DNA of 64,000 nucleotides from an uncultured Spirochaetota bacterium. Lineage in GTDB: Bacteria > Spirochaetota > Spirochaetia > SZUA-6 > Fen-1364. The notes beneath the pieces are model-generated. The model had not been told where the DNA came from, did not search any database, and saw only the letters and a list, made by a program, of their open reading frames with translations. The stretch lies in the NCBI GenBank assembly GCA_963734545.1, contig CAVTHO010000004.1:128001-192000 (forward strand), given 5' to 3'. The translations under genes were made by a program, and so were the position numbers. Shown here in pieces: positions 30,803-59,721 of the stretch (the first letter of the stretch is position 1; every line of letters starts with the position of its first letter).

Positions 30803-31349
30803 CTCCTGCTCTGCGCTACAAACCTCCTCGCCTCTGCCGCGATCCTCGCCCCCGAGGTGTCTACTGACAACCCCGCACGCGCCACCACCACTTCTCCTGA
30901 CCCGATCCCTGCATTCATCCGCCTCAGCGCGCTCGAGAGCCTCGGCGCTTCCCACCTCTCCCAGAAGCCCCTCCACCGCCACCGTGGCCTCTTTCGCGTC
31001 ATAGCTCATCCCGCTCACAAGCAGCGTACCCGCGTTCCGCGAGCTGTCCTCTGCGCTCGCTCCCACCTCTGAGAGTATCGCCTCGTTGCCTGCCTGCCCT
31101 GCCTTCTCCCGCGTGGCCTCCACCCATGCAAGCTTGCTCTCTCCCATGTTCAGGTAGGCCTGCCTCCACGCCTCGCTCTTCTCCCCATACTCCTGCTGGA
31201 AGCCCTGCCTCCACTGCACAAGGGCTCGCCCCAGCTTCTCCTGGCTGCTCGCCCATGCGCTTGCCGCCTGGGCCCTCACCAGCCCCACCTGTGCGTACCA
31301 CCCCTGCCGTCTGTCTCCAAGGTCCTGCACTGACCGCGCCCAGTCCTGC
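30803..31349 (-). repeat. Orphan, truncated direct-repeat copy of an internal segment (39645-40190) of the giant protein gene
   Basis: CTCCTGCTCTGCGCTACAAACCTCCTCG...GGTCCTGCACTGAC aligns along its length to 39645-40190 with scattered substitutions. The translation QDLGDRRQGWYAQVGLVRA... is nearly identical. No evident start context or toxin tip. Confidence 0.95.
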
Positions 31350-35245: not shown

Positions 35246-36372
35246 TCACTCCCAGCGCTCTTCGAATGCGGGATCCTTCGCCTTCGCTTCCGCAATCTTC
35301 TGTTTCCACAAGCCTTTCAGTCCCTTGTTGTTCCACAGAAGATCAACGGTTTCGTACTCCTTGAGCGGAGAGGCTTTCTTCAGATCGATGTCCAGCAGAT
35401 AGATCTCGATCTTTCCTTGTTTCAGCACTTCGAAATACAGCCCCTCCTGTCCCAGGTAATAGGAGAAGGACAACGCGGGCATGTGATCCGATTCGTCCAT
35501 GCCGTGCCACACGGAGTAGAGCGCGTCTTCCTTCAGGTCGTAGATGAGAACATTCCATCGCGACGGATTCCTTGGGACAGTGATTATTGGGTCATTCATT
35601 ATCGACTGGTAGAGAACGAGGAACACGAAGTTCTGGTCTACAACCGACTGGAGAGTTTTCACCTCAGCGACTATTGGGAGGTACGCCCCAGTGAAGGGCA
35701 GGATGAAATCTGTCAAGACCGACTTGTCGGACCTCGAGTAAACCCGGAGCTCCGTGTCACGCATAGCCCCCATGTAGGGCAACTTTGACTCTGTCGGTTG
35801 AAAACGCGATAACAAGATCAGATTTGCACCAGCATCAAGATCCTTGGGGTTCAGAGATGTAATAGACGTCCGGGTCTCTGCCTTCAGCTGAATACACCCA
35901 GCTTCGCTCCGTATCAATTCGCATGATCCCGTCATTGTGACTACGCAGATTCCTGTAGAAGCCAAATACCTTTTCTCGACGATATGTCCTGAAGTCCGTG
36001 ACCCTATCTGTCTTAACCGCCTTTGTCTTCTTGTCGTAGCGAAAAACCTCATACGAAGGTTCCTTGTTTCCACCACTCCCATAGTAGGGGTAGAAGTACA
36101 ACGACGACTCATCATCATTGGTGAGGCGTGGAAAGGAGTATCCTTGAATGTCCTCAAACCGGAAAGGACCCCTGTCGCTCAGCGGAATCGTCGTGATAGG
36201 CTTCGCCACAACCGCCTGCGCGAACAGCGTCTTTGGCATGTGAACGTCCGTGCGACCCTTTGAACACCTCTTCATACAGCGAACTCAGGTTGCCTCCCTG
36301 CGCGTTCGCCAACAGAATCGGGAGCATCAACAAGAACAGCACGATGATGGGCTGAGTTCTCCTGTTTGCCAT
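35246..36372 (-). CDS. Secreted hypothetical protein, candidate immunity protein (two frameshifts, ~36260 and ~35850)
   Basis: GGGGAG RBS 9 bp after the giant gene's stop region; signal peptide MANRRTQPIIVLFLLMLPILLANA-Q; fragments 36154-36372, 35835-36275 and 35246-~35850 are collinear, about 375 aa in total. Confidence 0.7.
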
Positions 36373-36381: not shown

Positions 36382-39300
36382 CTATCGGCCACCAAGCAGT
36401 GATGTGTCCCACCAAGGCTTGATCCGACCGAAGTTGGTGCCGCCACCGTTGAACTGATTCCGCCACCCGCTGAAATACCTGTTGTCCAAAAGCCAGTTGG
36501 AGTAACTGTCATTCAGCACGGAGGCGCTTTGCCAATTCCCGAGACTATTCGCTCTTGGCCCCGCTTCGTAGAGTGTTCCGTCAACTTCTTTCTGCGGTGC
36601 ACTGTGGATCAGGAGGTTCTGACCTTGGTCGTCGACCCCATAGAATCCGATGTGCATGTTTCCAGGAGGGCCGAGGAATACCAGGTCCCCAACCTGCGGA
36701 GCCGCCACCGGGTCAATCCGCGTGTCGTAGGACGTCAGGTACACCCCGCTGGCCTGCTTTGCTCTCACTCGCTCTGCCCACGACTCAGGCAATCCATAGT
36801 CGAAGTCGGCAAGCAAGGCGTTCTGCATGGAGCCCGTTTCTCCTTTGAGCCTTGCTGCAAGCGCGTTGCTGTAATCCTTCGATGAGCTGTCGAGCGCCCG
36901 CTTGTTGATCATTCCGCGGTATGACTGCCCTTCCTCCAGGGCACCGGCGGCATATGCCACAAGGTCAACGTACCCCACGCAGTCCAGCGAGGGAACACTC
37001 CCGTTGGTATCCTTCCAGCGATATAGTTCTGCATTAGGTGCTTGTCCTTCTTGAGGGAACCATCCGGTCACCGCCTTGCCGTACCCACGTTCGACAGTGT
37101 TCGAGTTCGCCCAATATGAGGCACCCGGTGTCTTGCCCTCCTCCGATCCACTTCTATCGTAGTTGATATTCAGGTACTCGCCCGTGTAAGTCAGCGCCAC
37201 ATCATTAATCAGGTTCCCGAACGGATTGTCGTAGCGAGCACTTCCCTCACCGGAAGCGAGGTTCGCCAAGAACAGCGCGCCAGAAAGACCGTCGAATCCG
37301 TCGCTCCCCCGGAAAGCGTTTGTCGTGTACTGGAGCATATCGTGACTGTACATGCTGCCGGCGACCGAGTCCTTCGAGTCCTTCAATGCCTCCCTAAGCC
37401 CGTTCACCAAAGCGAAGGCGTCGCCGTAGTCCTTATTCGACAGAACACCCGAGGTAAACGTGCTTAACTTCTCGTTGCCTGCAAGAAGCGCGAACGACCC
37501 CTCACCATTCACCAGATAGCTCCACAACTTGTTGGATTCCTTGTTGATGCTCCCGATCGCTTGGTCGTTCTGCACTGCTGCCAGCTTCAATAGATCCATC
37601 TCCGCCGCGTGCTCGTATTGCCGTTGACCGACTGTCTTCCCTTCACTGGCGATCTGCGCTGACGCAATATAGCCGAACCCACCGGCCCCGAACTTCTGCA
37701 GCATCCCTGCGCTCCAGGCCATCCCGGTTTCCTCGTATCCCTTCCCTGTCACGCCGAATGCCTGCATCAGGTCCGCGTAGGCGCTGATGCCGCCCATCTT
37801 CGCCTCAAACTCCCCTTTCCCGCCAAGATGTACTCCCTCATGAGCGAACAATGACGCGACCTGCGCCGCCCCTTCGATGCCGCCTCCAAGAAGCTTCGCA
37901 TTTATGCCGATGCTGTTGCTGCCTTCGGCATATGCCAAAGCCTTCAAGTCCTGCTCGGTTATGCCTGCAGTAGAGGCATCATAGTAGCTGACATTCTTCT
38001 GCCCTGCCCAAATCGCCTTTGCAATCTCGTAGTTTCCGCTGTTTTGTGTGTACCCCATCATGTTGATCGCGTTCAGCGTCGAAATGCCCCGCTGGTCGCC
38101 GAACGCTGCACTCGCTTTCGCCCCTGTAATCTTCAGAGTATCCTTGAGCCCGCTCATGCTCGCCGCGCACTGGTTCCCAGGCTCACATTCGTCCCGTTGC
38201 TTCCGAAGTTCATCCCAAATCCGCGGCTACCTCCAAGGTGCATTTCCATCAGCCCGTAGCTCTTGCTGCCGCCGAAGTCGGCGAAGTTCATCACATTCAA
38301 CGTCGCCTCGTTAGTGATCCCATACTGGATCCCCGTCGAAGTCAGGCCACCGGCGAGGCTATTGAAGCTCTCGATGCTCTTTCTGTTGAATACTTTCCCG
38401 CTGAGGTCGACATCGTTTCCGTCGTAGAGGTTCCAGTTTCCAAGCCCAGTGTTTACCGCTGCACCGCCTGCAGCTCCCGCCACGCTCGCCCATGCTCCCG
38501 TTCCAAACGACCCCTGCATGAAGCTATTCGTGTCCCACCCCAGCTTGCCGTCAGTCCAGTTGAACGCGTTGATCGCGCTCGTTGCCGTGTTCGTCGTGAA
38601 CGTCTGCGCCCCCGCAAGCAGCGCTTTGCCCACTCGCCCCCTTGCCGAAGCTTCCCAGCGCTCCTGTCAGCCCTGTCTTTGCGAACCCCTCCCCGACGTT
38701 AAACCCGTTGAACACTCCCCCTATTGTACTGGTCACCGTAGCTGGTCAGGAAGCTCTTCCCGATATCTAGCCCCGCCTCTTCCCAGCTCTTGTACCCGTA
38801 GGCCACATCCAGCGCGTCAAAGAGCACCGTGCTCGATGTGCTGATCGCCGCAGCAGCAGCTATCCCCGCTATCCCCCCGATCCCTCCTGTAGCCACGGTG
38901 GCCACTATCCCCGCAGCTATCGTGCCCACACTCCTCAGGCTGGGCGCCTTGAACCAGCTTCCCGTGTCGTCCCACAGCGGCTTATCCCACCGAGGGGCCG
39001 CCATCTCCGTCCACCCGCGGCTCTCCCTCATCTCGTTCCAGATGAAGTCCCCCATCAGCCGCCCCAACTCCCCCTTGCCGCTGACGATGATGTTTCGCCT
39101 CTGCGACTTGTCGAAGTCAGGCTCATCCGTGAACTCGGGCGCGTACCCTATCCAGGCCCCAAACTCCCCTTCCCCCATCTCCTTGCTGATGTCCCGCTTC
39201 TCTGCCCTGAAGCTCACCACCAGCCCCTTGGCCTTCTTCTCCGCCTGGCTCAGCTCCTTGCCCTCTCCGAAGATCCTCTTCTGCGCTGAGCCCACCTCCT

Positions 39301-42300
39301 CCTGCGCCGCTCCCACCAGGTCCATCACTGCGCCCGCGTCCAGCCCGCTCAGTCGACTCTGGCTCAGGTCCACCTTCAACTGCAGCGCGGGCATCGCGTA
39401 CCACACGTACCCCCCGACGCGCAGATTCTCGCTCACGATGTCGAAGAACAAGCTCCGCATGATCGTCTCTCGCTCGTACACCCCTCCGCTCTTCGCGTAG
39501 CCCGCATCGCCAAAGGTGGTGTCCATGCTCGTCTCAAAGCCCTCGTTGGCCTGCTTCACGCTCTCCGCTAGCGCTTCCTTCGCATCCTCCACGCTCGCTC
39601 GGGCATCATCGGCCAGCCCTCGCGCTGCCAACGCCGACAGCTCGCTCCTGCTCTGCGCTACAAACCTCCTCGCCTCTGCCGCGATCCTCGCCCCCGAGGT
39701 GTCTACTGACAACCCCGCACGCGCCACCACCACTTCTCCTGACCCGATCCCTGCATTCATCCGCCTCAGCGCGCTCAGAGCCTCGGCGCTTCCCACCTCT
39801 CCCAGAAGCCCCTCCACAGCAACCGTGGCCTCTTTCGCGTCATAGCTCATCCCGCTCACCAGCAGCGTGCCCGCGTTCCGCGTGCTGTCCTCTGCGCTTG
39901 CTCCCACCTCAGACAGTATCGCCTCGTTGCCTGCCTGCGCCGCCTTCTCCCTCGTGGCCGCCACCCAGGCAAGCTTGCTCTCTCCCATGTTCAGGTAGGC
40001 CTGCCTCCACGCTTCACTCTTGTCCCCATACTCCTGCTGGAAGCCCTGCCTCCACTGCACAAGCGCCCGGCCCAGCTTCTCCTGGCTGCTCGCCCATGCG
40101 CTTGCTGCCTTGGCCCTCACCAGCCCCACCTGTGCGTACCACCCCTGCCGCCTGTCTCCAAGGTCCTGCACTGACTGGGCCCAGGACTGCTCGGACTCTG
40201 CGCCGCGCGCATCCAGGGCGCCCGCGTACGTGGAAAGCACTGACTGCGCGTACTTCTGCAGAGCCGCCATCCGGGCCTGGGTCTCCGCCGCGTTCAGGAG
40301 TACCCCGCCGGAGAATGAGGCCGCATCCAGCACATTGCTTGAAAGTTCGTGTTCCGCCCTGGCAACCCACTGGGCGTTCTTATAAGCCTGCGAGGCGGCT
40401 GACACAAACGCATCTTTGCCTTGCCGTGCCGGCAATGTACGCGTCGTAGGCGGCCCGATACTCCTGTTGGGCCGTTGCCACCCGGGTCCTCGCGCTGACC
40501 AGGGCGCTGCTGACCTTCTGCTCGGCAGCGGACGTGTCGAGGCCGGCAAACAGCGTCATCCTTGACAGGGCTTTGCTGAAGGAAGACTTGTCCTCAGGCT
40601 TCAGTTGTGCCCAACTTGCATCGAATTGGGCCAGGAGCTCCACGGGTATGTCGACCTTGTCCGCGGCAATTCCCTGACGCTCGCCGGCGACCTTCTTGTA
40701 CTGATCGATGAATGAGGTGAGAGAATCGAGAGATTCACCGTTGCTCCCCTGCAGCTCGGTGAGACGCGCCCAGGCAGCATTGTAGACCTTTGTCGGACTT
40801 ATCGTGTTCTGAACCTTGGCGCCATCATTCAGGCTTCTGAGGCTTGAGACCACGTTGCCTATCTCGTCCCTGATCCTTTCTGCGGCGTTTCTGTCGCTTC
40901 TACTGCCCATGATACCGGGCAAAGATGCCGTGATCTCTGGCAAGTCTCCTGTAGTGCTGATACCGCCTTTCAGCCAGGTCCCACATGCGGCTGAAAATTC
41001 TTTCAGATGTCCTTGACTCGAACTGGCTGGAGGTGTTGGTGCTCTTTCCTCCCGCCATCCGCATCGCAAAGTACAGCTCGAATGCTTCCTTTTCCTCAGC
41101 ATTCGCCATGACTGACTCGTAGCGCGCCTGATCGAGGGAAACAGCTTCGGCAATGTAGGCCTGCACGTCGCTGCTATGGTTTTCACCTGCTATCTCCAGA
41201 CGGAGCCACTTACCGGACGATCTGACGAAACTGTTGTTGCTGGCGTAGCCCGAGAGAAGGCCCCGTATGTCGGCGTCCACATTCGAATCGTATAGCCGTC
41301 TCTTCAGCCAATCCGCCGCGAAGCCCCACCTGTTGATGAGACTATCCATTCCGCCAGACTGCGCGGCAAGCTTTTCCACTGAAGCGACCCACGAGCTGAG
41401 CTTGAAGCTCGAAAGAGCTCCTCTCCGCTCCGTCCTGAAGCGCCTGCTCCTTCTGGAAAAAATCCCTGACTTCCTGGACAGATTCCTCGCTTCCCTGGGA
41501 CGTCAGAACAAACGAGTCATCGATGTCCAGCACGAGCTTTCCATTTCGCACCTTGAGGTAGCTCGACCATGAGCTGGCCCGGTCCGAGGCATCGAAATCT
41601 TTCAAGCCGCCAAGGGCTGCATCGCGGTCTAGAACTTCGCCGCGCGTTTTCTGGAGAGCTTCGTAGAGATCTTGAGCCTTCTTGGCCTGCGCCTCTGTGG
41701 CCAGCGCAAGATCACCGGTCACGCGCTCGAGCCGCATAAACGCGGTGTACTTCTGCTTCCATGCGTCGTACGCTGCCAGAGTGGCGGCGTCTTCAATCGG
41801 CCGTTCCGCTACAGCCTCTGCCCCGAAGAGCCCGGTCAGCGCGTCCTTTGCCGCAGTTGCGCGGACGAGCTGGTCAGCAGCTTCTTTCTGGCGCTCGGCA
41901 GGGCTCTGGTAGTCCGCGGCCACCTCACCGCTTGCTGCCAGATAGCCGCTTGCCGCCCAGTCCTGGATTTCCTCCCGTGCGCGCAGATCGAACCGGGCCT
42001 GTTCCAGGCTGTCGCTGGCGTCCTGCAGATCCGCCAGGAGCGCATTGATGATTGTCCAATGTCTTCGAACTCCGCCAGGGCAGTGTCCACGGCAGACTGC
42101 CCGGCCTGCACGTGCCCGCGGAGACCTTCCATGGCAGCCTGGAGAGATTCGAGCTGCGCCTGGCGTTCCTCGGCCCCGAGGTCCAGGAATGCAAGAGCCT
42201 GGCCCGAACGGCTGATGTCTTCCTTGAGACTGTCAATCCTTGCAAGGGCGGATCGAAAGCTCGCCTCGTCTGCGTCCAATGAAGAGACGGCGGCCGCAGG

Positions 42301-45300
42301 GAGGTCGCTCTCCTGAGCGGTGCCTGCAACGAGAGCAGAGAGGTAATCATGGAACCGGGCGACGGCCCCGGCATCACCGCTGTCAACTGAAAGCTGCGCG
42401 GTAAAGGCCTCTTCGGCGCGTGCAAGGCTGTTGAACGCCTCCAGAACCAGGTTGTCCTTTGAACCGGCAGCGCTTCGCGCGTAGATTGCCTCATCCCGAG
42501 TCTCAGCGCTGGCCGCGGTCGTGATTGTCACCCCCGGGCCCACATTCGAGTCACTCAAGTAGTCGCGCCAGGATGCGGGGGCATCCGTCTGGCCGGCGAC
42601 GTACGTCCAATAGGCTGCCTCTGCCCGATCCACCGCGACTTCATGAGAAAGAGACATCGCCTTTTCGGCTATCTCGCGCATGGACACGGACGCTGCCCCG
42701 TCCAGTGGAGCGGCTGCGACGGCCTTGTACCAATCGAGGTAGGTGTCCGTTGAAATGGCCGCAAAGAACGCGTCGTCCCACTGATCGATCGAGATGGCCC
42801 CGATGAGGCTGCACTTTGCTGCAGCATCGTCAGGATCGCCTCCTGCAACTCTTTCCGCATAGGCCTCGGGACTGCCGTCGAACGCCCCCAGATAGCCGCG
42901 AGCCTTCATCATGACGTCCTTGAACCCGCCTACCCTTGTCAGGCTCGCAGGGCTGGTTGAGAGAAAGCTCATGAGCTCGTCAGGGACCGGTAGCCCCTGG
43001 GAGAGCAGCATCTTGGCGCGATACTCTGCCGCAGAGGCGCCTGCTCCTGCGAACGCTTCTGCCTCCAGGTCGAAGCTCTTTCCCGCGTACGAGGACACAT
43101 CCCCTGCATGGCCCAGGCCTGCGCGATCGCGCAGGAATACGGCAAGTGCGCTCCGCTCGGAATCGTCCGCGCCTTGCGCCTGAGCGGCAAGGGTCAGGGC
43201 TATGGCGCGCTCGTACACAGCGCCTGGTTCACCCAGGCTTCTGACGGCGGCAAGGCGCGCATCGAAGGTGTCTCCCATGAGGACCCGTCTGAAGAGACTC
43301 TCCTTGTCCTCATATCCAGATGCGAGTCCCTCGCAAAGCGCAATGATTTCCTGCGGTGCCGGATGGTCTGCGTCGAAGCTCTCGAGGTACGTGCTCAGGG
43401 CTGCTTCCAGATCCTCCTGAGTGGACCAATTGTGAGCAGCCACCTCCTCCCAAAGTCTCATTGCTTCCGGCGCAATCGAGCTCGCGGAGATGCCCGAAAC
43501 GGTCTGCGCCACGCTCACCGTGTTCCACGTTCTATAAGCGGAGATGCGCTGGCCTTCCACTGAAGCTCCGTAATTGGTGGCAAGAAGCTCCGCGGCCCTG
43601 GCAGCTATGCTGTCTGCCAGGCTGGCAGGCATGCCCGCGGCAAGCCCGGCTGCTATCGTGCGCAGCGGCCTGCCGGGATCGGCAATGAATTGTTTTGCCG
43701 CTTCCGCGGCACCCGCGTTGACGATCAGATCCTTTGCGGCGTTCGTGAATGGCGATGACGCACCGGGCCGGGCATACAGCTCCACCAGTGAAGCGAACCT
43801 GTCCATGCCCTGCAGGCCCTGGGTAATGCGATCAAAGTCGGCCAGGGTAGCGGCAGCTTGTGAAGCGGACGCCTCCGCCGCCGCGGCCCTGTCTGCTGCC
43901 CCGGCCAGGGAGCCCCTGCGGACAGCATCAGCGGCAGCGTACCGGGAGAGAGCTTCGCAGTATTCGCTCACACGGTCCTCGAGCCAGCGGGGCCCGTCCG
44001 CTGTCGCGGCCCGCAGCGCGCCTCCCAGTTCGGCAACGAATCGACCAGCGGCCTGGCTATCCAGGATGGAAGCAGCCGCCGCCACGTCTTCTGCAGAAGA
44101 CAACGAAGCGTTCTCCGGCACGCGCAGTCCCCTGTCCGTGAATACTTTCTTCACCGCATCCAGGGATTCGGACTCTCTCTCCGCGATCAACGCCGTGCTG
44201 GTGCCTGCGGCATGGCTCCATGCCGCCTGAAGACGTCGGGCGCGCTCCGCCTCCCTGTACTGGGGCAAGCAGAACGCGAGGGTGAGGTCTCCTGCCTGGG
44301 TATCCACGAATGTGCCCGTGCCGCCTGCAAATGCCTGGATCCACGCGTCTGTGCTCGTCAGCGCGCGGAGTCGGGCCAAGCCCGTTGCGGTGTCCGCTGC
44401 GCTGTCCAGCGCACTGAGCAGCGCATCCAACGCACCTGCGCGATGGAGTGCTTCAGCCTGATCCAGACCCGGTTGCGCTGATTTTGCCAGCATGACAGCG
44501 TCCTGGTCGGAAGGGCTGCCATTCCCTGCCATCTCGAGCCAGGCCTGCAGTCCTCGTTTCTCAGCCCTTGCGCGCGCAGCTACCAGGGCCAGCGCAGCCG
44601 TGGGCATTGTCGGCAGACAATCGGTCCGCCAAGGATCCTTCGCTCCGCGTGCCTCCTGATTCGTTGTACCAGCTTTCCGCATCCGTGGCGCCGCTGGCCC
44701 GCACTTCAGCGAGCCGTTCCTGGTATGCGGCATCTGCCCGCACGTTGAGCAGGCCAAGGTAATTGAGAAGCTTCGCTCCCGCGGTTGCCTTTGCGTCCCC
44801 CACGGTTGCGTCGCGCCAGGCGGCAAAAAGGGCTGATACGGCCGCGTAGTCGGGCGCATCGATCGGCACGCCAAGCTCGTCAATGGATGAGGGAATCCGA
44901 TCCACGAAACCCGGCACCCGGATTCGCTCAGCCGCGCTCTTCAGGTCTGCAAGCGGGGCAACCCCGGACTCTGGATCGCCCTTGACCAGGACCGCGGCGC
45001 TCTGCCAGGCACCGTCGACTGCAAGATCAAAGCCGTGCAGCCTCGCTGCGGTGAAGTAGGCTGTGCTCGCTTCGGTGAGCCAGGTGTCGGATCCGGACAT
45101 CCCGCTCGCGTCCAGCAGGTCCTTGTACTTCTGCTCGATCTGCCCCTTATAGAAATCCACTGTCCCGCTCTGCGTAGAGACGAGCGCGTCCACATATTCC
45201 TGGCGAGCCTGCTCATAGTCGGCAGAGGCCTCGTCAGCGGCAGCCTGGGCCGCCTGAAGGGCCTGGCGCGCAGCGGCCAGTCCCGCGCCTCCATCCTGCA

Positions 45301-47436
45301 GGCCCTTCACTGCTGCTTGATATTCATCCAGCCGCGTCTCATAGACGGTCTTGGCCGCGTTGTACTTCTTCGTCCCCTGTGTCGGCAGTCTCACGGCCGC
45401 TCGAGATGTCCTGGGCATATGCGACGACCGAGTCGGCAATGGCTTTCCTCTGTTTCCAGTAGTCCTCTATGGCCTTGGCACGGAGAAGCTCGAGCTGATA
45501 CTCGTCAAGGTATGCGACACCCGGAGTCGGCGTCCGTCTTCAAGACATCCCTGAGGTCAGCTATCTGCGATCCAAAAGCGCTCCCCAGGGCGTCCTCGAG
45601 TCCCTCCTTGGCCGTGGCAGCCTGCGCGGTGTACGTGTCGATCATGTTGAGCCAATCGCCCATCCGGCTCATGCGCTCCCAGGCAGTCTGGACCGCGTCT
45701 GCCTGGGAAGAGTTGCCGTCCGTCTGCTTCAGGAAGCTCTCATATGTGGCAAGCGCCAGGTTCAGGGCAGAGTTCTCTCCCTGAACCGGCCCGCTGGCAT
45801 TGACCACACGCATCTTGTTGTGGACAGGCACTCGCTGCGCAATCAGATTGCTCAGGCTTTGAATCTGCAGATTCTAGGAGGCGATCTTTGCGGCCGGCTC
45901 CTTGATGAGCTGTGCGACCAAATATGGCGAGTTTGGATATGCCTTTTTGATACGCACGATATCGAATTCGAGGTCCGCAATTTCCGCTTGATAGTAAGAC
46001 CACGCCTGGGTATATGCGCTTATCTGGGAAGACAGCGTGTTGACGTATCCTGCCCACGTCTGCGTGCGCCAGGCGGTCAGGGCCGGCACAGCGTCCTTGG
46101 AGAAAACCAGGTATTCGCCGTTTCCGTCCCTTATGTTGAGCTTCTGTATCACCTCCTGGCCCGAGGCCACGGCAGTGGAGATGACCTGGAGGGATTGCGC
46201 GTACATGTCGACAAGCGCGCCCACCCTCTCCTGCATGCCGGCCAGCCGCTCGTTTCGTTCGTTCTGGAACTCATTCCGGGCAGTATTGATTGCAGCGGCA
46301 AGCTGGTTCTGTTCGCCCTCCCACTTTGCCTTGCCGGATTGAAGGAGTGTATCGACCTTCTGCTCCCATGCCCGGCGTTCTGTGGAGAGCCGCGCGAATG
46401 CCGCGGACCACGCTGCCTCTCCCTCTTTGTAGGACTTCCCCGCGTCCCGCTCCCACTCCATGCGGCTGGTGAGGAACTTCTCCTCTGCCGCGTCCCACTT
46501 GGAGAGCCCTTTCTCGAACGCCGCCTTGAAGCTCTCAAGCCACTGCTGCACGTCTATCGAAGGAACGCTGGAATCCACCGAGTCGGGACTCAGCGCCAAT
46601 CCGGATCTGATCTGCTCGATTCCCTCCTCGGTCTGGGCCCGGGTCTCCTTCACAATCTGGTCGGCAACGGCATCCGCGGTCGTTGACTCGCTCTTCTTGC
46701 GCAGCGAGTATTGATCATAGAGCCGCCGCGCCGTCAGGGACAGCTCGCCCTGGAGCGCCACCCTCTCCATCTCACGCCGCAGGCCTGCCTCGCGGCTGCT
46801 CTTGTACTCCCCATACCTGGCAAGCGCTTCGGGACCCAGAAGGCCGCCCAGCTCGGGCGCAAAAGCAGCGTCCACCCTTGATTCCCACGCGGCAAGGACC
46901 TCGTCCGTGGCAGAGGCCACCCGGGCCTTCCAGCCTTCCCTGTCCGCCTCCACCCCGGTTGCCCCGTGCAGGACCGGGTCACCGCTCTCATCGAGGACGA
47001 TGTTTCCCGCTTCATCAGTCGTGTACAGGTACTGCAGGTCTGCCTCGGTGATGGCCCGCAGCACTGCTTCGCTTCCCAGGGAGCCCTGTCGATCGAAGAA
47101 GCGTCTGGTCAGCCACGCCTCGTAGCGCTGCTCTGTCTGCGCGCCCACCCAATCGGAAAGTTGCGCCCTGGCCCGGGCAATCTGGTCGGGATCGGTGTAG
47201 AGATCCGAGGCCTCGCGCTCCCAGAGAGAGACCGCGGCCTCGGCTCCGAAAAGTGCTACTCTTTCCCAGGCAGAGCTTTCACGCTCCAGGTCTGCCCGGT
47301 TGTAGTAGACTTCCAGCGTTTCTTTCTTGAAGCCCTTGATGCTGCCGGGCAGCTCCTGCCCCGCCAACGCAGCGGTGGTCAACAGGGCGAATATGCAGGC
47401 GATGAGGTATTTCCATGAAAGGTGGAATGCCTTCAT
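36382..47436 (-). CDS. Giant (~3,700 aa) secreted helical protein with C-terminal HExxH and NlpC/P60-like domains; putative polymorphic toxin, split by about a dozen frameshifts
   Basis: GAGGAG RBS plus signal peptide MKAFHLSWKYLIACIFALLTTAALA. Abutting or overlapping minus-strand fragments (45874-47436, 45505-45831, 44561-45439, 41836-44883, 41342-41923, 40900-41379, 40380-41186, 38699-40549, 38154-38633, 36382-38157) lack intergenic gaps. AHEGVH; LDCVGYV..GDLVFL..HIGFY..LIHS. Confidence 0.75.
39645..40190 (-). repeat. In-gene copy of the ~547 bp direct repeat (partner of 30803-31349)
   Basis: Direct visual alignment of both ends and interior. Confidence 0.95.
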
Positions 47437-47506: not shown

Positions 47507-50503
47507 TCAAGTTGCTGCCTCCGCAGGCTTTCTCCCACGCCGCCGGGCTCCACTTGCCGCCAGGCCGATCAGCGCGGGGACAAGAAGAACGGTTGCCGCA
47601 TAGGAGCCGGCAATACCCCAGATGATCACGAATGCAAGGGACCGCATGAACGCTGCCCCTGCTCCGGCTGCAAACAGCAGGGGCAGATGGCCCAGAACCG
47701 TGGCCCCCGAGGTTGCCGTCAGTGCAGACAGTCGGGAGAGCACTGCGTCTGCCACGGCACGGGGCCCGCGGCCCCGGCGGGAGCGATAGGCGTCCACGAT
47801 AAGGATGGAGTTGTTGACCGCCATTCCGCTCAGCACAATCAGGCCGATGAGCACCGGCACGACAAGGCGCTGCCCCGTGACGCGCATGATTATCAAGGGC
47901 AGGGTAACGGAGGCGGGCAGGACCGCCAGGATGACCAGGGGCCAGAGAAACGATTCGGTGAGAACGCCGAGCACGAGGTAGATGAGCAGAATGCAGAGCG
48001 CGAAGGTCAGCCAGAGGCTTCGAAACCGTTCCGCCTGCTCGACCAGGTCCCTGCCGACGTCAAACGCATAGCCCGAAGCAAGGGTGAAGGAACCGAGCGC
48101 GGCCTCCACGCTTCGCACGATTCCCCTGATGTCACCCGCTTCCACGTGGGCGGTGAGGTACACCGCCCTCTGCCGGTTGAGCCGGTAGAGCTTTCCCCCT
48201 TCGCGCACAACGTCGAATTGCCCCGTGAACTCGACCGGCACGGACCGTGAGTTGCCGACCGATACCGGAATGCCCCCGAGGTCTTTCGGCGACTGCTGCG
48301 CCCGCCTTGTTCCCATGACACGCAGATCGATCTCCCGATCTCCGCCCATCCACTTCAACGCAACCGGGCCGTACAGGTGCCAGCGGAGAGTGCCGGCCAC
48401 AGCCTCTGCAGTGGTCCCTGCCATCGCGGCGCGCTGCGGGTCCACCTTGAATACCCAGGAGTCTGCCGGCTCCTTGAAATTGAGAACCACCTCCCGGATC
48501 TTTTCTCCGCCGCCCAGGATCTGTGCAGCCTGCGCCGCATAGGTCTTGAGCGCCGCATCGTCATCCCCGGTGATCGCGATTTCAAGCGCCCGCTCTGTAG
48601 CGCCAGCTCCCTCCGGCAGATAGGCAAAGCCGCCGGGAATGTTGCGTCCCTCCTCCCTGATGATGCCGGACAGTTTTTCCCTGGGCAGAAGGGAGGAATT
48701 GAACCCCACCTCGACCTCCGCGCTTCCCCGTCGGGCCGTGCTCTGCACAACGGTGACTCCGGGGACCTTCCGCAGTCTTGCGATGAAGGAAGCGGTGCGT
48801 GAGTCCACGGCTTCGATGGAGGCGCCGCTTTCGCATTCGACATGAACCGGCACGCTGTCTGTCTGCGGCGGAGGCTCCAGGTCGATTCCTATGCTGGCAA
48901 CGGCCCAGATGCCGATGACGGCAAGCGCGGCACCTCCTGCAAGAGGCCAGGTAATCCGTGAGCTGCAGGCCGTCACGATCCGCTCCGCAAACGCCTGCGC
49001 CAGACCGCCCGCCTTGGCCATGGCCCTGTTCACCGGCCCGGGCGGCCGTGGTTTCGCGCGCCGGGCCGATCTCAGGGCCACAACATAAGGCGGAATGAAG
49101 AGACAGGACAGCAGGAACGAGATGGCCACGAGCATTGCCAGCGCAAAGGAGACCTTGCGGATTCCGCCGCCTCCGAAATCCAGCGTCATCAGGGGTATGA
49201 GCACAATGAGGGCTGTCACAGTGGAAGAGAGGAGGGCCGGGATGATGCGTTCGGCTTCCGCAAAGTACTTTTCCCTGCCCGCACCGGGCGTTGCCCGGCC
49301 CGCGATGATGATCCCCGTGTCGATCATGGTGCCGATGCCGATGGCGAGCCCGGACAAAACATACGTGTCCATGCTGAAGCCTGCGGCAGAGACCGCTGCA
49401 GCGCTCGCAAGGCCGATGACCGGAATCGACACGGAGATGGCGATGACCCGCCGGGCTCCGGAAATGAACAGCGGGAGGGTGACCGCGGACACCAGGACCG
49501 CAAATGCAATGGCCTCCAGGATGCTCCTGAGGGACTTCTCCAGATCTGCACCTGCGTCCAGAATGACGCCGAACTCCAGTCCCCTTCCCTCCCAGACGCC
49601 GAGCTCGGTCCTGATGGCCCGGGACAGCTCGATGAGGTTCGCGCCACCGGAGCTCTTCACGGCCAGAACGGCGTTTTCTGTACCGTTGACCCGGCTTATC
49701 TCGTCATGCTCTCGCGGTGCATAGTCCACGGCTGCAATGGAACCCAGGGCCAGGCTCGTGCCTGCCACGGGCAGCCGCAGACCCCGGAGCCCTTCGAGAT
49801 CTCCGAGGCGTCCGGAGAGCACGACAGCCAATTCGCTCCCCTCGGACCGGACAAGACCGAGCGGCGCCAGGAGCTCGTTGGATTGAATGGCCCGGGCAAC
49901 CATTGCCGCATCCAGTCCCGCGCGGGAAGCGCGCTGCTCGTCCAGAATGACATGAATCTCCCGGGGCGCCCCTCCTCCCACCTCCACTTCACCTGCCCCG
50001 TCGATCTTTTCCAGTGAAGGCTTCAGCTCCTTCTCCAGCATGGTGGCAAGGTCGGTCACGGACATGGAGGGGGACCGGGCGGATGCGATGAAGATCGGAC
50101 GGCCCTCTTCCCCGGAGGACAGAATTCGCGGGCGCTGCACGGAGCCCGGGAGCTGGCTGTACACCCGGTCCACGGAGTCCCTGAGCTGCAGGTAGGTTTC
50201 TCTTTCAGGGGTGCCGGGCTGCATGAAGACGGTGACACGCGCCGATCCGTAGTCGGAGAGGGAGCGCAGGGTCTTCAGACCGGGCAGGGAGCCCAGCGCG
50301 TCCTCCAGCGGCCGGGTGATGGTGCGCTCGATTTCCCGCGCATCCACGCCGAAGTGCTCCACGATGACCGAGTACGCTGCGCCGCCTTCTCCTCCTGAAG
50401 GACCCAGGCGGGCACCCGCCACAACGGCTCCTGACACGATCAGCACAATGAGCAGGCAGGTTGCCGAAGCCACGGGCTTGCGGTACAGGCTAGCGATCCC
50501 CAC
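47507..50503 (-). CDS. RND efflux permease subunit (AcrB/AcrD/AcrF family), divergent copy
   Basis: EIERTITRPLEDAL, LKPSLEKIDGAGEVEVGGG, ISRVNG, LIYLVLGVLTESFLWPLVIL, GMAVNNSILIVD; GTG start overlaps the upstream stop region. Confidence 0.9.
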   Translation of the reverse strand: MGIASLYRKPVASATCLLIVLIVSGAVVAGARLGPSGGEGGAAYSVIVEHFGVDAREIERTITRPLEDALGSLPGLKTLRSLSDYGSARVTVFMQPGTPERETYLQLRDSVDRVYSQLPGSVQRPRILSSGEEGRPIFIASARSPSMSVTDLATMLEKELKPSLEKIDGAGEVEVGGGAPREIHVILDEQRASRAGLDAAMVARAIQSNELLAPLGLVRSEGSELAVVLSGRLGDLEGLRGLRLPVAGTSLALGSIAAVDYAPREHDEISRVNGTENAVLAVKSSGGANLIELSRAIRTELGVWEGRGLEFGVILDAGADLEKSLRSILEAIAFAVLVSAVTLPLFISGARRVIAISVSIPVIGLASAAAVSAAGFSMDTYVLSGLAIGIGTMIDTGIIIAGRATPGAGREKYFAEAERIIPALLSSTVTALIVLIPLMTLDFGGGGIRKVSFALAMLVAISFLLSCLFIPPYVVALRSARRAKPRPPGPVNRAMAKAGGLAQAFAERIVTACSSRITWPLAGGAALAVIGIWAVASIGIDLEPPPQTDSVPVHVECESGASIEAVDSRTASFIARLRKVPGVTVVQSTARRGSAEVEVGFNSSLLPREKLSGIIREEGRNIPGGFAYLPEGAGATERALEIAITGDDDAALKTYAAQAAQILGGGEKIREVVLNFKEPADSWVFKVDPQRAAMAGTTAEAVAGTLRWHLYGPVALKWMGGDREIDLRVMGTRRAQQSPKDLGGIPVSVGNSRSVPVEFTGQFDVVREGGKLYRLNRQRAVYLTAHVEAGDIRGIVRSVEAALGSFTLASGYAFDVGRDLVEQAERFRSLWLTFALCILLIYLVLGVLTESFLWPLVILAVLPASVTLPLIIMRVTGQRLVVPVLIGLIVLSGMAVNNSILIVDAYRSRRGRGPRAVADAVLSRLSALTATSGATVLGHLPLLFAAGAGAAFMRSLAFVIIWGIAGSYAATVLLVPALIGLAASGARRRGRKPAEAAT

Positions 50504-53500: not shown

Positions 53501-53540
53501 CCGTGGGGCGCTTGAGGGCGGCTGCAATCAGTCCACGCAC
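50490..53540 (-). CDS. RND efflux permease subunit (AcrB/AcrD/AcrF family)
   Basis: YPGLPASEVRSLITIPLED, NIMSLGGLALAIGMIVDNNVVILEN, LGAQFESFLLP, GIAVNNSIIL, RMRPILIT, IIGGLFVSTILTLFVLP. Confidence 0.95.
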   Translation of the reverse strand: MRGLIAAALKRPTATLMIFAGVMILGVAASLNLRLELLPELTIPKLTVSTSYPGLPASEVRSLITIPLEDQLASVKGVKRVSSVSRDSLSIITLEFSWGEDMVSASVRTREGIDVAYTSLPSDAGKPQVLPAEAGERPIAIVAVRPRSGDLAFARRLGEREIKTRLQQVEGVGSVVLAGGAVEEVVVSVDQSQMASKGLTLNDVASLVAKNNYDYPTGTVTAGGLEYLVKASGTVADPAALGEFRFVGGRSALRLSDIASISLDKRERLSFFQVNGAEAVGLSVMKRKGASPIRVSAGLKEEVARLAASYGKDLDILIVSDGSLFIAASLRNLALSTLAGSLIAFIVLIVFIRDFRTSALLMLSLPIAITVTLLALQVFGRTVNIMSLGGLALAIGMIVDNNVVILENLQKRHVIGKATADSVLRHTLELATSRLGSTLTLTVVFLPIIFLPGLLGPLFTDLSLSVIFAQIASFLTSITLMPVLFLLLERRAARRKAPRARAWSDHLFRRSLMSTLRKPWTIVTAVALLTALGVLCVPLLGFDFMPAQDTGEIDVTITMPYGAELERTASVSTDAARACAAVPGVQGVYARAGGEPEDAQYYADPEERREIIHVRVLLARGRMQSTAAVASAIRSSLHIESAVVEVSLPGSIITPLLGLGRGGRAMVVKGSTQAEAQARARTISARFKPGGPSGDLSARVNLQPEGERSEVRLIPNRDAVTVAGLSLADLAETVRNAITGSYPSRMSIEGRDLDVRVRVDRRQASRPEDLPAIVVSTPGGSEARLSELVRMRSEPSVPALYRRDRADAVIVAVEPAAGLDHGVTAEIGRLERRFEWVRSVEGSVLAENISALLAAFALVIVLLYLVLGAQFESFLLPALLLTALPLSFSGISLALAVSGKPISFDSALGIIVLFGIAVNNSIILYETYSARRKSGVPMVAAVYQGTSDRMRPILITMLITVLSLLPIAIDLSHTSAESGMAVAIIGGLFVSTILTLFVLPRLFIIYLRGRGRRGDR

Positions 53541-53546
53541 GCGAGC

Positions 53547-59206: not shown

Positions 59207-59216
59207 TGAGGTGCGG

Positions 59217-59721
59217 TTATTTGCCGCGCCCGGCGGCGAAGGCCTTGGCTGCCTCTTTGAGACAGTCACCGAGTATCCGCTTGAGGATCCATGGCGATGA
59301 GATGCTGTCCGAGGACTCGCTTGTGTGGACAACGGTCAGGGCCGGCTGCGCCGCGTCCAGCGAAGGGTACATTTCTATGGAAACCATGATCGCGTATTGA
59401 GGCGTGAAGTCCCGGATTGTCTCCCGCTCCACTATATGGACACGCAGCGGCCAGCCATCTCCGGCGGCAGCCGTGGTGACCGCGAACCCGCTCCCGGGAG
59501 CGAGCACGGGAAGAAGGGCCTCAACGTCTCGGGCCACTTCATGTGAAAGGACTCTCCGGTCCACGTCCACCTTGTCCACGAACACGCCGGCGGGCGCAGG
59601 GCCCGGGTCCGCCCTTGGCCGGGTACGCCACCGTGTCCCTTCGGGGGAACAGTGCGCATGAGGCAATCAGGGTGGTTGCGCACACCACGCACAATGCCGC
59701 GAAGAAAAGCCTGCACTTCAT
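59217..59721 (-). CDS. Hypothetical lipoprotein (frameshift ~59600-59640)
   Basis: Lipobox TLIAS-C in ORF 59539-59721, continuing in ORF 59217-59666; ATGA overlap with the upstream gene. Confidence 0.7.

What the first reader, a model, noticed from the sequence alone, without database searches (positions are those of the whole stretch)
36382..38950. Toxin-like tip: Gly/Ala hydrophobic segment, HExxH motif and NlpC/P60-type catalytic triad
Seen, in order toward the C-terminus: VGTIAAGIVATVATGGIGGIAGIAAAAAI (~38840-38930); AAQVASLFAHEGVHLGGKGEFEA (~37800-37870), an HExxH with a downstream Glu; and SLDCVGYVDLV (Cys ~36980)...PQVGDLVFLGPPGNMHIGFY (His ~36653)...LLIHS. Established: DCSG..GDLVFF..HVGIY..IH is the NlpC/P60 papain-like peptidoglycan endopeptidase/amidase signature, and HExxH marks zincin metallopeptidases. 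Inference: a membrane-inserting segment, a possible auto-processing protease and a cell-wall-degrading warhead. The spacing between the Cys and His motifs is unusually long (~110 aa).
Basis: partly seen in the sequence, partly recalled or inferred. Interest (0 to 1): 0.75.

Follow-up and report, generated by a model that had tools for sequence, protein, structure and literature searches.

The report
Swappable wall-cutting tip, giant spirochaete protein
The three motifs are real and form the end of a roughly 3,700-residue secreted spirochaete protein whose cell-wall-cutting tip is exchanged between relatives together with the gene next to it, as in bacterial toxin-immunity systems, but this copy is broken by frameshifts as assembled.

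Summary
All three motifs sit at the stated coordinates. As assembled they lie in three reading frames of one minus-strand gene (about 47436 to 36382, about 3,685 codons) that changes frame about 10 times. Relatives carry it as a single ORF of 2,900-3,945 aa.

- **Tip:** the C-terminal domain has an NlpC/P60 fold with conserved Cys393, His502 and His518. The 109-residue Cys-His gap is a clade-specific insert; distant members have 51-56.
- **HExxH:** it is part of an invariant HExxH-x5-6-E module (18 of 18) with weak, specific similarity to M48 zincins. The fold is unconfirmed.
- **Hydrophobic segment:** the Gly/Ala segment is conserved.
- **Comparative genomics:** the conserved body carries different tips (NlpC/P60, M23, others). 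Each tip type tends to have its own secreted partner gene downstream. Several genomes hold arrays of 5'-truncated tip-partner cassettes with transposases. Two copies in one relative differ only in a 1.1-kb cassette spanning the toxin end and partner start.
- **Neighbourhood:** the gene usually sits beside an RND/TolC-like/Big_5 cluster.

My reading is an undescribed Spirochaetota polymorphic toxin-immunity family with peptidoglycan-hydrolase warheads. Toxicity, immunity, export and self-cleavage are inferred. Pfam and NCBIfam did not cover the body, and my literature searches found no description.

The parts
36382..47436 (-). Giant gene of about 3,685 codons if read through. As assembled it is broken into about 11 frame segments, with frame changes near 45520, 45370, 44600, 42050, 41395, 40921, 40410, 38741, 38645 and 38166.
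   Evidence: The open-frame map is. The gene is colinear with P0001 and with the intact 3,369-aa ORF of L011. Apart from the frame changes, no in-frame stops were seen.
47359..47436 (-). Probable start (ATG) and Sec-type signal peptide, MKAFHLSWKYLIACIFALLTTAALAG.
   Evidence: The translation is. The signal peptide was read by eye, with no predictor run. Full-length relatives P0013 and P0017 also begin with hydrophobic signal-like N-termini.
38843..38929 (-). Gly/Ala-rich hydrophobic segment that follows the conserved WDDTGSWFKAPSLR motif (38933-38974).
   Evidence: Coordinates are. The Kyte-Doolittle 19-mer maximum is 1.78 here and 1.5-2.0 in 9 of 9 proteins that carry the motif.
38157..38633 (-). 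Gly/Thr/Asn-rich core module (GKALLAGAQ...GLMEMHLGG). It is the most widely conserved part of the family and lies in a third frame in the window.
   Evidence: See, alignments A2 and A3, and the profile searches.
37558..38157 (-). HExxH module, with HEGVH at 37828-37842 and the conserved Glu116 at 37810-37812.
   Evidence: In alignment A5, H106 and E107 are invariant and H110 is kept in 13 of 14. In the trimmed set, HExxH plus the Glu are kept in 18 of 18. hhalign to M48 gives probability 60%. Pfam M48 hits are sub-threshold in P0028, P0029 and L004.
36385..37350 (-). Tip: conserved helical lead-in plus an NlpC/P60-fold domain. Catalytic candidates are Cys393 (36979-36981), His502 (36652-36654) and His518 (36604-36606).
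35249..36309 (-). Partner gene of a 366-396-aa secreted family ending ...KAKDPSFEERWE. It is a candidate immunity protein and is read in three frames in the window.
   Evidence: tblastn with P0041 and P0042 is. The family (13 homologues) and alignment A6 are. It lies immediately downstream of the toxin gene in L004 and L002.
30803..31349 (-). 547-nt copy, 95% identical to 39645-40190, of an internal piece of the giant gene. It lies beside an IS200-like transposase (31537-32019) and is likely the remnant of an orphan cassette.
   Evidence: See blastn, tblastn, and Pfam Y1_Tnp.
47507..61825 (-). Upstream cluster on the same strand:
- TPR at 60401-61825 and 59718-60404
- OEP (TolC-like) at 57827-59332
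- HlyD-type adaptor at 56458-57777
- Big_5 proteins at 55052-56368 and 53547-55079
- AcrB-type RND at 50490-53540 and 47507-50767

The same cluster neighbours the giant gene in most relatives.
   Evidence: Pfam results are. The same components sit next to the giant gene in G280, G070, G328, G363 and G342. Coordinates also place a Big_5 match within about 16 kb upstream on the same contig in G235, G305, G336, G384 and G423.

Best explanation
The region is the C-terminal end of a member of an undescribed Spirochaetota family of giant (2,900-3,945 aa), Sec-signal-bearing, largely Ala/Glu-rich proteins. The family behaves like a polymorphic toxin system.

The conserved body ends in a hydrophobic Gly/Ala segment, a Gly-rich core and, in this subfamily, an HExxH-x5-6-E zincin-like module. 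Behind it sits an exchangeable tip. Here the tip is an NlpC/P60-fold cysteine peptidase (Cys393/His502/His518) predicted to cut peptidoglycan peptide stems.

The gene immediately downstream encodes a secreted partner that co-varies with the tip and is most likely a periplasmic immunity protein.

Proposed mechanism:
1. The protein is exported by Sec and displayed or released, possibly with help from the adjacent RND/adaptor/TolC-like cluster.
2. The hydrophobic segment helps the tip cross a neighbour's outer membrane.
3. The zincin module may release the tip.
4. The tip degrades the neighbour's wall unless the cognate partner blocks it.

Shown by computation: the fold and catalytic residues of the tip, conservation of the motifs, tip swapping, tip-partner covariation, orphan cassette arrays, and linkage to the RND cluster.

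Inferred: toxicity, immunity, export route, membrane insertion and self-cleavage.

In this assembly the gene and its partner are interrupted by frame changes. This copy works only if those are assembly errors, which I put at about 0.6.
For: **Tip**
- In the VIA-align wide search, 22 chains score Z>=8. All but three of the top 23 rows (Z 8.0-10.4, 113-174 aligned residues, rmsd 2.5-6.0) are NlpC/P60 proteins, peptidoglycan endopeptidases, autolysins, cell-wall hydrolases or an endolysin. LytE aligns over 115 of 118 residues at 2.6 A.
- A profile of A1 against PDB sequences returns only five hits, all of them cell-wall endopeptidases: CwlO (two entries, E 0.005), LytE (two entries) and a Thermus cell-wall-binding endopeptidase-related protein. 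DC and HxGIY are aligned.
- Pfam NLPC_P60 is hit by 12 of 17 members at E<=0.1, best 2.5e-6.
- In A1, Cys is present in all 13 rows that cover that column. His248 (alignment numbering) is nearly invariant.

**Polymorphism**
- The same body carries an M23 peptidase tip in P0003 (64 bits) and in L011/P0021 (53 bits).
- P0030 and P0031 have weak M23 matches. P0028 has another, unidentified tip.

**Partner covariation** (23 toxin-plus-next-ORF pairs from 7 genomes)
- Tip cluster 1 goes with the discoidin-type partner in 4 of 4.
- Tip cluster 0 goes with the SH3_3 partner cluster in 3 of 4.
- The M23 cluster goes with one LRR partner cluster in 3 of 4. The fourth partner is also LRR by Pfam.
- The NlpC/P60 cluster goes with the ERWE family in 2 of 2.
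- ERWE-family proteins report the same longest-contig lengths as NlpC/P60-tipped P0001, P0002, P0024 and P0026.

**Cassette structure**
- Two copies in G008 are 98.7% identical in DNA over the toxin body.
- They are about 50% identical over a ~1.08-kb stretch covering the toxin's last ~72 codons and the partner's first ~280 codons.
- They are 93% identical again over the partner's end.

**Orphan arrays**
- In five genomes, 16 ORFs share the core (two of 2,944 and 3,699 aa, the others 602-1,344 aa; one matches through its M23 tip only). Most align from different points of the body.
- Most are followed by a 150-450-aa ORF, with transposases interspersed.
- The window holds a 547-nt, 95%-identical remnant beside an IS200-like transposase.

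**Patchy distribution**
- 24 of 401 Spirochaetota genomes sampled.
- 4 of 20 genomes of the window's own genus.

**Partners look secreted.** A6 members begin with hydrophobic N-termini and sites such as ANA-QG (read by eye). The L011 partner has a lipobox-like VFTGC.

**RND linkage.** The cluster lies within about 16 kb on the same contig in 11 of 15 loci: 9 of 13 with open frames >=2,900 aa, plus G336 and the window.
Against: - No experiment or expression data exists. No sequencing run was listed.
- The window's own Pfam NLPC_P60 score is below the curated cut-off, and Foldseek found nothing significant.
- The tip model is only moderate (pLDDT 66, pTM 0.76). I could not measure Cys-His distance because no coordinates were available.
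- Tip clusters 2 (4 members) and 4 (2 members) show no concordant partner cluster.
- I chose the pairs by hand as 'next ORF downstream', and kin are not independent.
- All identified tips are peptidoglycan hydrolases, which could equally serve self-remodelling.
- The RND/Big_5 cluster is far more widespread (110 of 401 genomes) than the giant gene. The linkage may therefore be positional rather than functional.
- The gene, its partner and the remnant carry about 13 frame changes here, so this copy may be dead.
- The HExxH module is missing from most context ORFs: only 3 of the context ORFs from nine genomes matched it. By eye it reads HEA[YW]R in L011, P0017 and P0018. It cannot be a universal part of the mechanism.
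Confidence: 0.6

Rival explanations
1. This is a self-acting envelope protein. The giant helical protein is a periplasmic scaffold tied to the conserved RND/Big_5/TolC-like envelope machine. It positions a peptidoglycan hydrolase for the cell's own wall remodelling. The downstream secreted protein is its regulator or inhibitor, as IseA is for LytE or NlpI for MepS.
For: - All identified tips are wall hydrolases (NlpC/P60, M23).
- The gene is linked to an envelope-spanning pump cluster in 11 of 15 loci.
- It has a Sec signal and no recognised toxin-trafficking domain.
- The best structural matches are housekeeping endopeptidases, including LytE in complex with its inhibitor IseA.
Against: - The distribution is patchy even within the genus (4 of 20).
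- One genome can hold several copies.
- 5'-truncated cassette arrays with transposases occur in relatives.
- The tip and partner are exchanged together as a cassette between near-identical flanks.
- Different tip chemistries sit on one body.

These are marks of conflict systems, not of housekeeping genes.
Confidence: 0.2
2. This copy is a dead remnant. Whatever the family does, the gene, its partner and the nearby fragment have decayed by real frameshift mutations and make no functional product in this organism.
For: - There are about 10 frame changes in the giant gene, 2 in the 1.1-kb partner gene and 1 in the 547-nt remnant.
- The two adjacent 3-kb AcrB-type genes are uninterrupted.
- Two of the three copies in relative G008 are also interrupted.
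Against: - All disruptions are frame changes. No in-frame stop and no large deletion was seen, and similarity to relatives stays at 50-77% in every segment.
- A 98%-identical protein from another assembly reads through three of the sites.
- Another long gene in the window, GH94/glycoamylase-like at about 12.2-18.8 kb, is likewise split into overlapping ORFs. This points to assembly indel errors.
Confidence: 0.4
3. The protein derives from a phage or mobile element. It would be a tape-measure-like or ejection protein (long helical body, hydrophobic segment, muralytic end) from a prophage or conjugative element, used to breach the wall during DNA entry.
For: - The architecture resembles tape-measure proteins with muralytic ends (recalled, not tested).
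- The N-terminal ORF matches phrog_22272, a 4,080-position PHROG of unknown function (E 7.6e-8).
- A diffocin baseplate chain and phage hub or endolysin chains appear among the fold matches.
Against: - Apart from the phrog_22272 match noted above, PHROGs gave no other match for the nine giant-gene ORFs or the two partner-gene ORFs scanned. The only phage-related Pfam/PHROG hits among the neighbouring genes are a restriction-modification pair and an IS200-like transposase.
- tblastn found no match in 50,697 phage records, with either the N-terminal ORF or P0002.
- The protein has an N-terminal Sec signal.
- The neighbourhood is a chromosomal RND cluster in most genomes.
- Orphan tip-partner arrays are not a tape-measure feature.
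Confidence: 0.05

Closest known systems
Polymorphic toxin systems (CdiA/CdiI, Rhs, MafB and others), as surveyed by Zhang et al. 2012, PMC3482391. I saw the search listing, the abstract and 12 'find' passages.
   Same: A large conserved N-terminal body carries a variable C-terminal toxin domain. A cognate gene lies immediately downstream. Arrays of 5'-truncated 'orphan' toxin-immunity cassettes are present. A peptidase module can sit just before the toxin, which the survey calls 'releasing peptidases'.
   Different: - No FHA, RHS, LXG/WXG, PT-VENN or other recognised trafficking or repeat domain was found. Pfam and NCBIfam found nothing in the body.
- The body is Ala/Glu-rich and probably helical.
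- The N-terminus is a plain Sec signal.
- The locus is tied to an RND/TolC-like cluster rather than to T5SS, T6SS or T7SS.
- The identified tips are wall hydrolases, not nucleases or deaminases.
- The passages shown for 'Treponema', 'spirochaete' and 'NlpC' (12 of 45 places) did not describe this family. The paper's supplements were not seen.
T6SS amidase effectors and their periplasmic immunity proteins (Tae/Tai, Tse1/Tsi1)
   Same: A papain-like NlpC/P60-superfamily enzyme is delivered to a rival's periplasm and neutralised by a secreted immunity protein. Tae3-Tai3 (4hz9, Z 7.0) and Tse1 (3vpi, Z 6.7) appear among the fold matches, and Tae2 appears weakly in Foldseek.
   Different: Those effectors are small, stand-alone and fired by a T6SS. 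Here the domain is fused to a ~3,400-residue carrier. The fold is closer to LytE, CwlO and YkfC-type endopeptidases (Z 9.7-10.4) than to the Tae families.
Housekeeping NlpC/P60 D,L-endopeptidases (LytE, CwlO, MepS, RipA) and their protein inhibitors or adaptors (IseA, NlpI)
   Same: These are the best structural and profile matches. They share the Cys-His-His triad order and the DC...GD(L/I)VF...H(I/V)G(I/F)Y...IH motifs.
   Different: - The window's clade has a ~55-residue insert between the Cys helix and the His strand.
- A family-specific helical lead-in and a C-terminal extension (GPR...ND.Y.N...YF..W) are present.
- The Pfam score is below the cut-off.
- The domain is fused to a giant carrier.
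TANFOR-domain polymorphic toxins of Bacteroidetes (PMC7073777; only the search listing and the start of the abstract were seen)
   Same: It is a phylum-restricted class of very large secreted proteins with polymorphic C-termini.
   Different: The N-terminal domain and the phylum differ. No sequence relation was tested here.
Phage tape-measure proteins with muralytic ends, for example T5 pb2
   Same: The order of parts is the same: a long helical body, then a hydrophobic segment, then a wall hydrolase (M23 or NlpC/P60).
   Different: There is a signal peptide, no phage genes nearby, no hit in phage records, and orphan cassettes with partner genes.

Membership tests
NlpC/P60 (Pfam PF00877, papain-like peptidoglycan endopeptidases/amidases) | Score at or above Pfam's gathering cut-off (23 bits) | tested here: not met
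   The window ORF scores 18.3 bits (E 0.0023). The trimmed domain scores 20.0 bits (E 0.0007). 12 of 17 family members match at E<=0.1, best 2.5e-6. P0017 scores 21.6 bits with nearly full profile coverage, 3-93 of 105.
NlpC/P60 (Pfam PF00877, papain-like peptidoglycan endopeptidases/amidases) | Papain-like alpha+beta fold: a helix carrying the Cys packed on a beta-sheet carrying the His | tested here: met
   The AF2 model has pLDDT 66 and pTM 0.76, with the beta core at 80-93. In VIA-align wide, 22 chains score Z>=8 and the top rows are NlpC/P60 endopeptidases. LytE aligns over 115 of 118 residues at rmsd 2.6, Z 9.9. Foldseek alone gave no match at E<=0.001.
NlpC/P60 (Pfam PF00877, papain-like peptidoglycan endopeptidases/amidases) | Catalytic Cys, His and a third polar residue (His/Asp/Glu/Asn) in family order and conserved | tested here: met
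   Cys393, His502 and His518 are located. Cys is present in all 13 A1 rows that cover the column, and His is nearly invariant. The third position is His except Asn in P0014. DC and HxGIY align with the same motifs of CwlO. Cys-His proximity in the model could not be measured because no coordinates were available.
NlpC/P60 (Pfam PF00877, papain-like peptidoglycan endopeptidases/amidases) | Hydrolysis of peptidoglycan peptide stems | not testable with these tools
   This needs sacculus digestion and muropeptide analysis.
Zincin metallopeptidases (HExxH), M48-like | HExxH on a helix plus a third zinc ligand, conserved across the family | tested here: met
   HExxH and a Glu 6-7 residues after the second His are present in 18 of 18 trimmed sequences. 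In the wider alignment A5, H106 and E107 are kept in 14 of 14 and H110 in 13 of 14. That the Glu binds zinc is inference.
Zincin metallopeptidases (HExxH), M48-like | Significant profile or fold match to a zincin family | tested here: inconclusive
   - Pfam Peptidase_M48 is sub-threshold: P0028 18.6 bits, P0029 18.9 bits, L004 14.9 bits, against a cut-off of 20.3.
- hhalign against 12 M48 domains from relatives gives probability 60%, E 8.7e-5, over 53 columns. Five controls gave probability <=0.3%.
- The AF2 model is poor (pLDDT 51).
- VIA-align's best Z is 4.5. The minigluzincin selecase 4qhf reaches only Z 3.7 at rank 28.
- The PDB profile search found only M23 chains.
Polymorphic toxin-immunity systems | Conserved N-terminal body with alternative C-terminal domains in relatives | tested here: met
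   One body carries NlpC/P60, M23 and other tips. The 23 tips examined fall into 9 clusters.
Polymorphic toxin-immunity systems | A cognate gene immediately downstream that co-varies with the tip | tested here: met
   Concordance is 4 of 4, 3 of 4, 3 of 4 (4 of 4 by Pfam LRR) and 2 of 2 for four tip clusters. It is 0 of 4 and 0 of 2 for two others. A 1.08-kb divergent cassette spans the toxin end and partner start between near-identical flanks.
Polymorphic toxin-immunity systems | Orphan (5'-truncated) toxin-immunity cassettes near the main gene | tested here: met
   Arrays are present in G363, G342, G372, G250 and G357. In the window itself there is only a 547-nt remnant.
Polymorphic toxin-immunity systems | Toxicity to neighbouring cells and protection by the partner | not testable with these tools
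   This needs expression and competition assays.

The most novel reading that the evidence does not exclude
The conserved TPR / TolC-like / HlyD-type adaptor / Big_5 / double-RND cluster next to the gene is a dedicated export route. It would take the Sec-delivered ~3,700-residue protein from the periplasm across the spirochaete outer membrane. This would be an RND-driven counterpart of type I secretion of giant proteins. It would feed a contact-dependent weapon whose hydrophobic segment and zincin module deliver and release exchangeable wall-hydrolase tips into neighbouring spirochaetes.
Probability: 0.15. Interest if true: 0.88.

Novelty: new variant of a known kind. Interest (0 to 1): 0.68.

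Why it matters
No interbacterial weapon specific to Spirochaetota turned up in my searches. These cells keep their wall and flagella under a fragile outer membrane. A phylum-restricted family of giant secreted proteins with swappable peptidoglycan-hydrolase tips and matched secreted partners would have several consequences:
- It would add a new carrier class to the polymorphic toxins.
- It would supply a set of natural hydrolase-inhibitor pairs: NlpC/P60 with the ERWE family, M23 with LRR lipoproteins, and others with SH3 or discoidin-type partners.
- It would raise a testable question about how a ~3,700-residue protein leaves a diderm cell that has no recognised secretion system beside the gene except an RND pump.

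Tried and rejected
- **Direct PDB and Foldseek searches.** phmmer of the 591-aa ORF against PDB sequences found nothing. Foldseek of the tip model against PDB gave no match at E<=0.001. The wide VIA-align search was needed.
- **HExxH module.**
  - The AF2 model was poor.
  - VIA-align's best Z was 4.5.
  - The PDB profile search found only M23 chains from the tips.
  - The ESM Atlas gave no usable hit.
- **Complex prediction.** For the L004 tip with its partner the verdict was 'no answer' (score 0.00). This is no evidence either way.
- **Reads to test the frameshifts.** No run was listed.
- **The search for related loci** with A1 and A2 failed because no stretch was conserved enough. The narrower A3 worked.
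- **Phage origin.** PHROGs gave only phrog_22272, of unknown function, for the N-terminal ORF. tblastn against phage records gave no match.
- **Family libraries.** Pfam and NCBIfam found nothing in the body of the giant protein.
- **Earlier findings of this scan.** Nothing was shown.
- **Literature.**
  - Four searches were made: 'polymorphic toxin / spirochete / peptidoglycan hydrolase / immunity', 'Treponema / polymorphic toxin', 'Treponema / interbacterial / effector / immunity protein', and 'Spirochaetota / giant protein'.
  - None listed a paper on this family.
  - Only listings were read, apart from passages of PMC3482391.
- **Frameshift clustering.** I first thought the frameshifts were confined to this locus, which would favour real decay. 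I dropped that after seeing another long gene in the window split the same way.


Full report
**Observation.**
- The Gly/Ala hydrophobic run is at 38843-38929.
- HEGVH is at 37828-37842, inside AAQVASLFAHEGVHLGGKGEFEA (37801-37869).
- The Cys of SLDCVGYV is at 36979-36981, the His of NMHIGFY at 36652-36654, and LLIHS at 36601-36615.
- The Cys-His gap is 109 residues.

They do not lie in one open frame as assembled. ORF 38699-40549 holds the hydrophobic run. ORF 38154-38633 is in another frame. ORF 36382-38157 (591 aa) holds HExxH and the Cys/His motifs.

**One giant gene, broken here.** The open-frame map shows a chain of overlapping frames from about 47571 down to 36384.
- With the intact 3,369-aa ORF of relative L011 as a guide, the window is colinear throughout. 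Frame changes fall near 45520, 45370, 44600, 42050, 41395, 40921, 40410, 38741, 38645 and 38166.
- The likely start is the ATG at 47436, followed by MKAFHLSWKYLIACIFALLTTAALAG. By eye this is a Sec signal peptide.
- Relatives have single frames of 2,905-3,945 aa.
- The downstream gene (36309-35249) is also read in three frames.
- P0023, a 98%-identical protein from another assembly, reads through three of the window's breaks but has its own break further on.
- All disruptions are frame changes, with no in-frame stops.
- Another long gene in the window (GH94/glycoamylase-like, about 12.2-18.8 kb) is split the same way. The two AcrB-type genes are whole.

I lean towards assembly indels (about 0.6) but cannot settle it, because no sequencing run was listed.

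**The tip is an NlpC/P60-fold enzyme.**
- Pfam gives only a sub-threshold hit for the window (18.3-20 bits against a cut-off of 23).
- An exhaustive search of 1.84 billion representatives with the last 262 residues found just 18 proteins at E<=0.001. Three were giants of 3,122-3,656 aa carrying the domain at their C-terminus.
- In the 17-row alignment A1, the Cys is present in all 13 rows that cover it and the His is nearly invariant. The third residue is His except Asn in one row.
- 12 of 17 members hit NLPC_P60 at E<=0.1, best 2.5e-6.
- The A1 profile's only PDB hits are cell-wall endopeptidases (CwlO and LytE, two entries each, and a Thermus endopeptidase-related protein), with DC and HxGIY aligned (E from 0.005).
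- The AF2 model (pLDDT 66, pTM 0.76, beta core 80-93) gave nothing significant in Foldseek.
- In the wide VIA-align search 22 chains reach Z>=8. The top rows are almost all NlpC/P60 endopeptidases or autolysins (Z 8.0-10.4). LytE aligns over 115 of 118 residues at 2.6 A.
- The long Cys-His spacing is an insert. Spacing is 51-56 residues in P0017, P0018 and P0019, 69 in P0016, and 99-111 in the window's clade. The insert is the low-confidence stretch 171-214 of the model.

**The HExxH module.**
- Chance expectation for HExxH in the whole protein is about 0.009.
- In 18 of 18 trimmed subfamily sequences, HExxH and a Glu 6-7 residues after the second His are kept. In the wider A5, H106 and E107 are invariant and H110 is kept in 13 of 14.
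- Pfam M48 appears just below threshold in three members.
- hhalign against 12 M48 domains taken from relatives gives probability 60% and E 8.7e-5 over 53 columns around the active-site helix. Five controls stay at or below 0.3%.
- The structure model is poor and its fold search is empty.
- The module sits directly before the point where relatives diverge into different tips. In known polymorphic toxins that is where releasing peptidases sit (passages of PMC3482391).
- It is not universal. Only 3 of the context ORFs from nine genomes carry it. By eye, L011, P0017 and P0018 read HEA[YW]R there.

**The hydrophobic segment.** It follows a conserved WDDxGxWFKxPxxR motif. Its Kyte-Doolittle 19-mer maximum is 1.5-2.0 in 9 of 9 proteins with the motif. 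Whether it spans or inserts into a membrane is untested.

**What the family looks like elsewhere.** Record titles of related loci name uncultured Spirochaetota or Spirochaetaceae MAGs. One homologue is named from Gracilinema. The window is therefore probably from a spirochaete.
- A core profile matches 24 of 401 Spirochaetota genomes sampled (16 of 153 genera).
- It matches 10 of 41 close relatives including the window, and 4 of 20 in the window's genus.
- The body is constant but the tips differ. M23 peptidase is found in P0003 and L011. P0030 and P0031 have weak M23 matches. P0028 has another, unidentified tip.
- In five genomes the region holds arrays. 16 ORFs share the core; two are full-size (2,944 and 3,699 aa), the others 602-1,344 aa, and one matches through its M23 tip only. 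Most align from different points of the body. Most are followed by a 150-450-aa ORF, with transposases between them.

**Tip-partner pairing.** I paired each toxin-like ORF with the next downstream ORF, giving 23 pairs from 7 genomes (G363, G372, G250, G357, G342, L011 and two copies in G008). I left out two ORFs that had no following ORF in the fetched DNA or were followed by transposase fragments. I then clustered tips and partners separately.
- Tip cluster 1 goes with a discoidin-type (NADase_transloc) partner in 4 of 4.
- Cluster 0 goes with an SH3_3 partner cluster in 3 of 4.
- The M23 cluster goes with one LRR partner cluster in 3 of 4. The fourth is also LRR by Pfam.
- NlpC/P60 goes with the ERWE family in 2 of 2.
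- Clusters 2 and 4 show no concordance (0 of 4 and 0 of 2).

The ERWE family has 13 homologues of 299-396 aa (12 of them 366-396 aa) with signal-peptide-like N-termini. Four of them report the same longest-contig length as NlpC/P60-tipped proteins. That suggests the same contig but does not prove it.

Two copies in G008 are 98.7% identical over the toxin body. They are about 50% identical over 1.08 kb covering the toxin's last ~72 codons and the partner's first ~280 codons. They are 93% identical again beyond that. This looks like a co-exchanged cassette.

In the window, GC falls from 0.62 (38-40 kb) to 0.56 over the tip and partner. A 547-nt, 95%-identical copy of an internal piece lies at 30803-31349 beside an IS200-like transposase.

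**Neighbourhood.** Upstream on the same strand lie two TPR genes, a TolC-like OEP, a HlyD-type adaptor, two Big_5 proteins and two AcrB-type RND genes.
- The same parts flank the giant gene in G280, G070 (divergently), G328, G363 and G342.
- By coordinates, a Big_5 match lies within about 16 kb on the same contig in 9 of 13 loci with frames >=2,900 aa, and also in G336 and the window.
- It does not in G315. No nearby hit was listed for G225, G100 or G129.
- The Big_5 protein itself is found in 110 of 401 genomes. The cluster is therefore older and wider than the giant gene.

**Reading.** The best fit is a polymorphic toxin-immunity system of a new carrier type, with peptidoglycan-hydrolase warheads. 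The rivals are a self-acting wall-remodelling scaffold, a dead copy (not exclusive with the main reading) and a phage-derived protein. They are weighed in their own sections.

Pfam and NCBIfam find nothing in the body. Phage records hold no match. Four literature searches listed no paper on the family.

All function is inferred. The single complex prediction returned no verdict and is not used as evidence.

Noticed in passing
window 30803-31349 (-), with 31537-32019 (-): A 547-nt copy of an internal piece of the giant gene, 95% identical to 39645-40190. It has its own frame change near 30934 and sits next to an IS200-like (Y1_Tnp) transposase. It is probably the stump of an orphan cassette.
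   Followed up: partly
window 32270-34730 (+): A PstI/BsuBI-type restriction-modification pair (N6_Mtase/Eco57I methylase, then BsuBI_PstI endonuclease) lies between the toxin-partner pair and the orphan stump. The whole 30-38 kb stretch has lower GC (0.56-0.57) than its surroundings (0.60-0.65).
   Followed up: no
window 47507-61825 (-): A TPR / TolC-like / HlyD / two Big_5 / two AcrB cluster. A homologue of its Big_5 protein is found in 110 of 401 Spirochaetota genomes, often as a tandem pair. This is a widely conserved envelope system of unknown substrate.
   Followed up: partly
window about 12201-18751 (+): A long GH94/glycoamylase-type gene, which looks like a cyclic-glucan-synthase or phosphorylase, is split into several overlapping ORFs. 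This suggests that indel errors affect other long genes of this assembly too.
   Followed up: partly
window 45874-47553 (-): The N-terminal ORF of the giant gene matches phrog_22272, a 4,080-position PHROG of unknown function (E 7.6e-8). A giant relative was therefore once binned as phage or prophage protein. No match was found in current phage records.
   Followed up: partly
L047-L048 (G363), L051-L052 (G372), L043 (G342), L049-L050 (G250), L045-L046 (G357): Arrays of toxin-like ORFs are each followed by a secreted protein of a recurring type (SH3_3, LRR, NADase_transloc/discoidin, small 150-205 aa). These are candidate families of peptidoglycan-hydrolase inhibitors. One giant gene (G070) is followed by an RCC1-repeat protein.
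   Followed up: partly
window 22274-25202 (-): A PAS/HisKA/HATPase/receiver hybrid kinase ORF overlaps a second PAS-only ORF by about 100 nt. This may be another frame change, or two genes.
   Followed up: no
window 27293-29851 (+): An 852-aa protein with four cadherin-like beta-sandwich domains and six DUF5122 beta-propeller repeats. It is a probable surface protein and appears unrelated to the finding.
   Followed up: no
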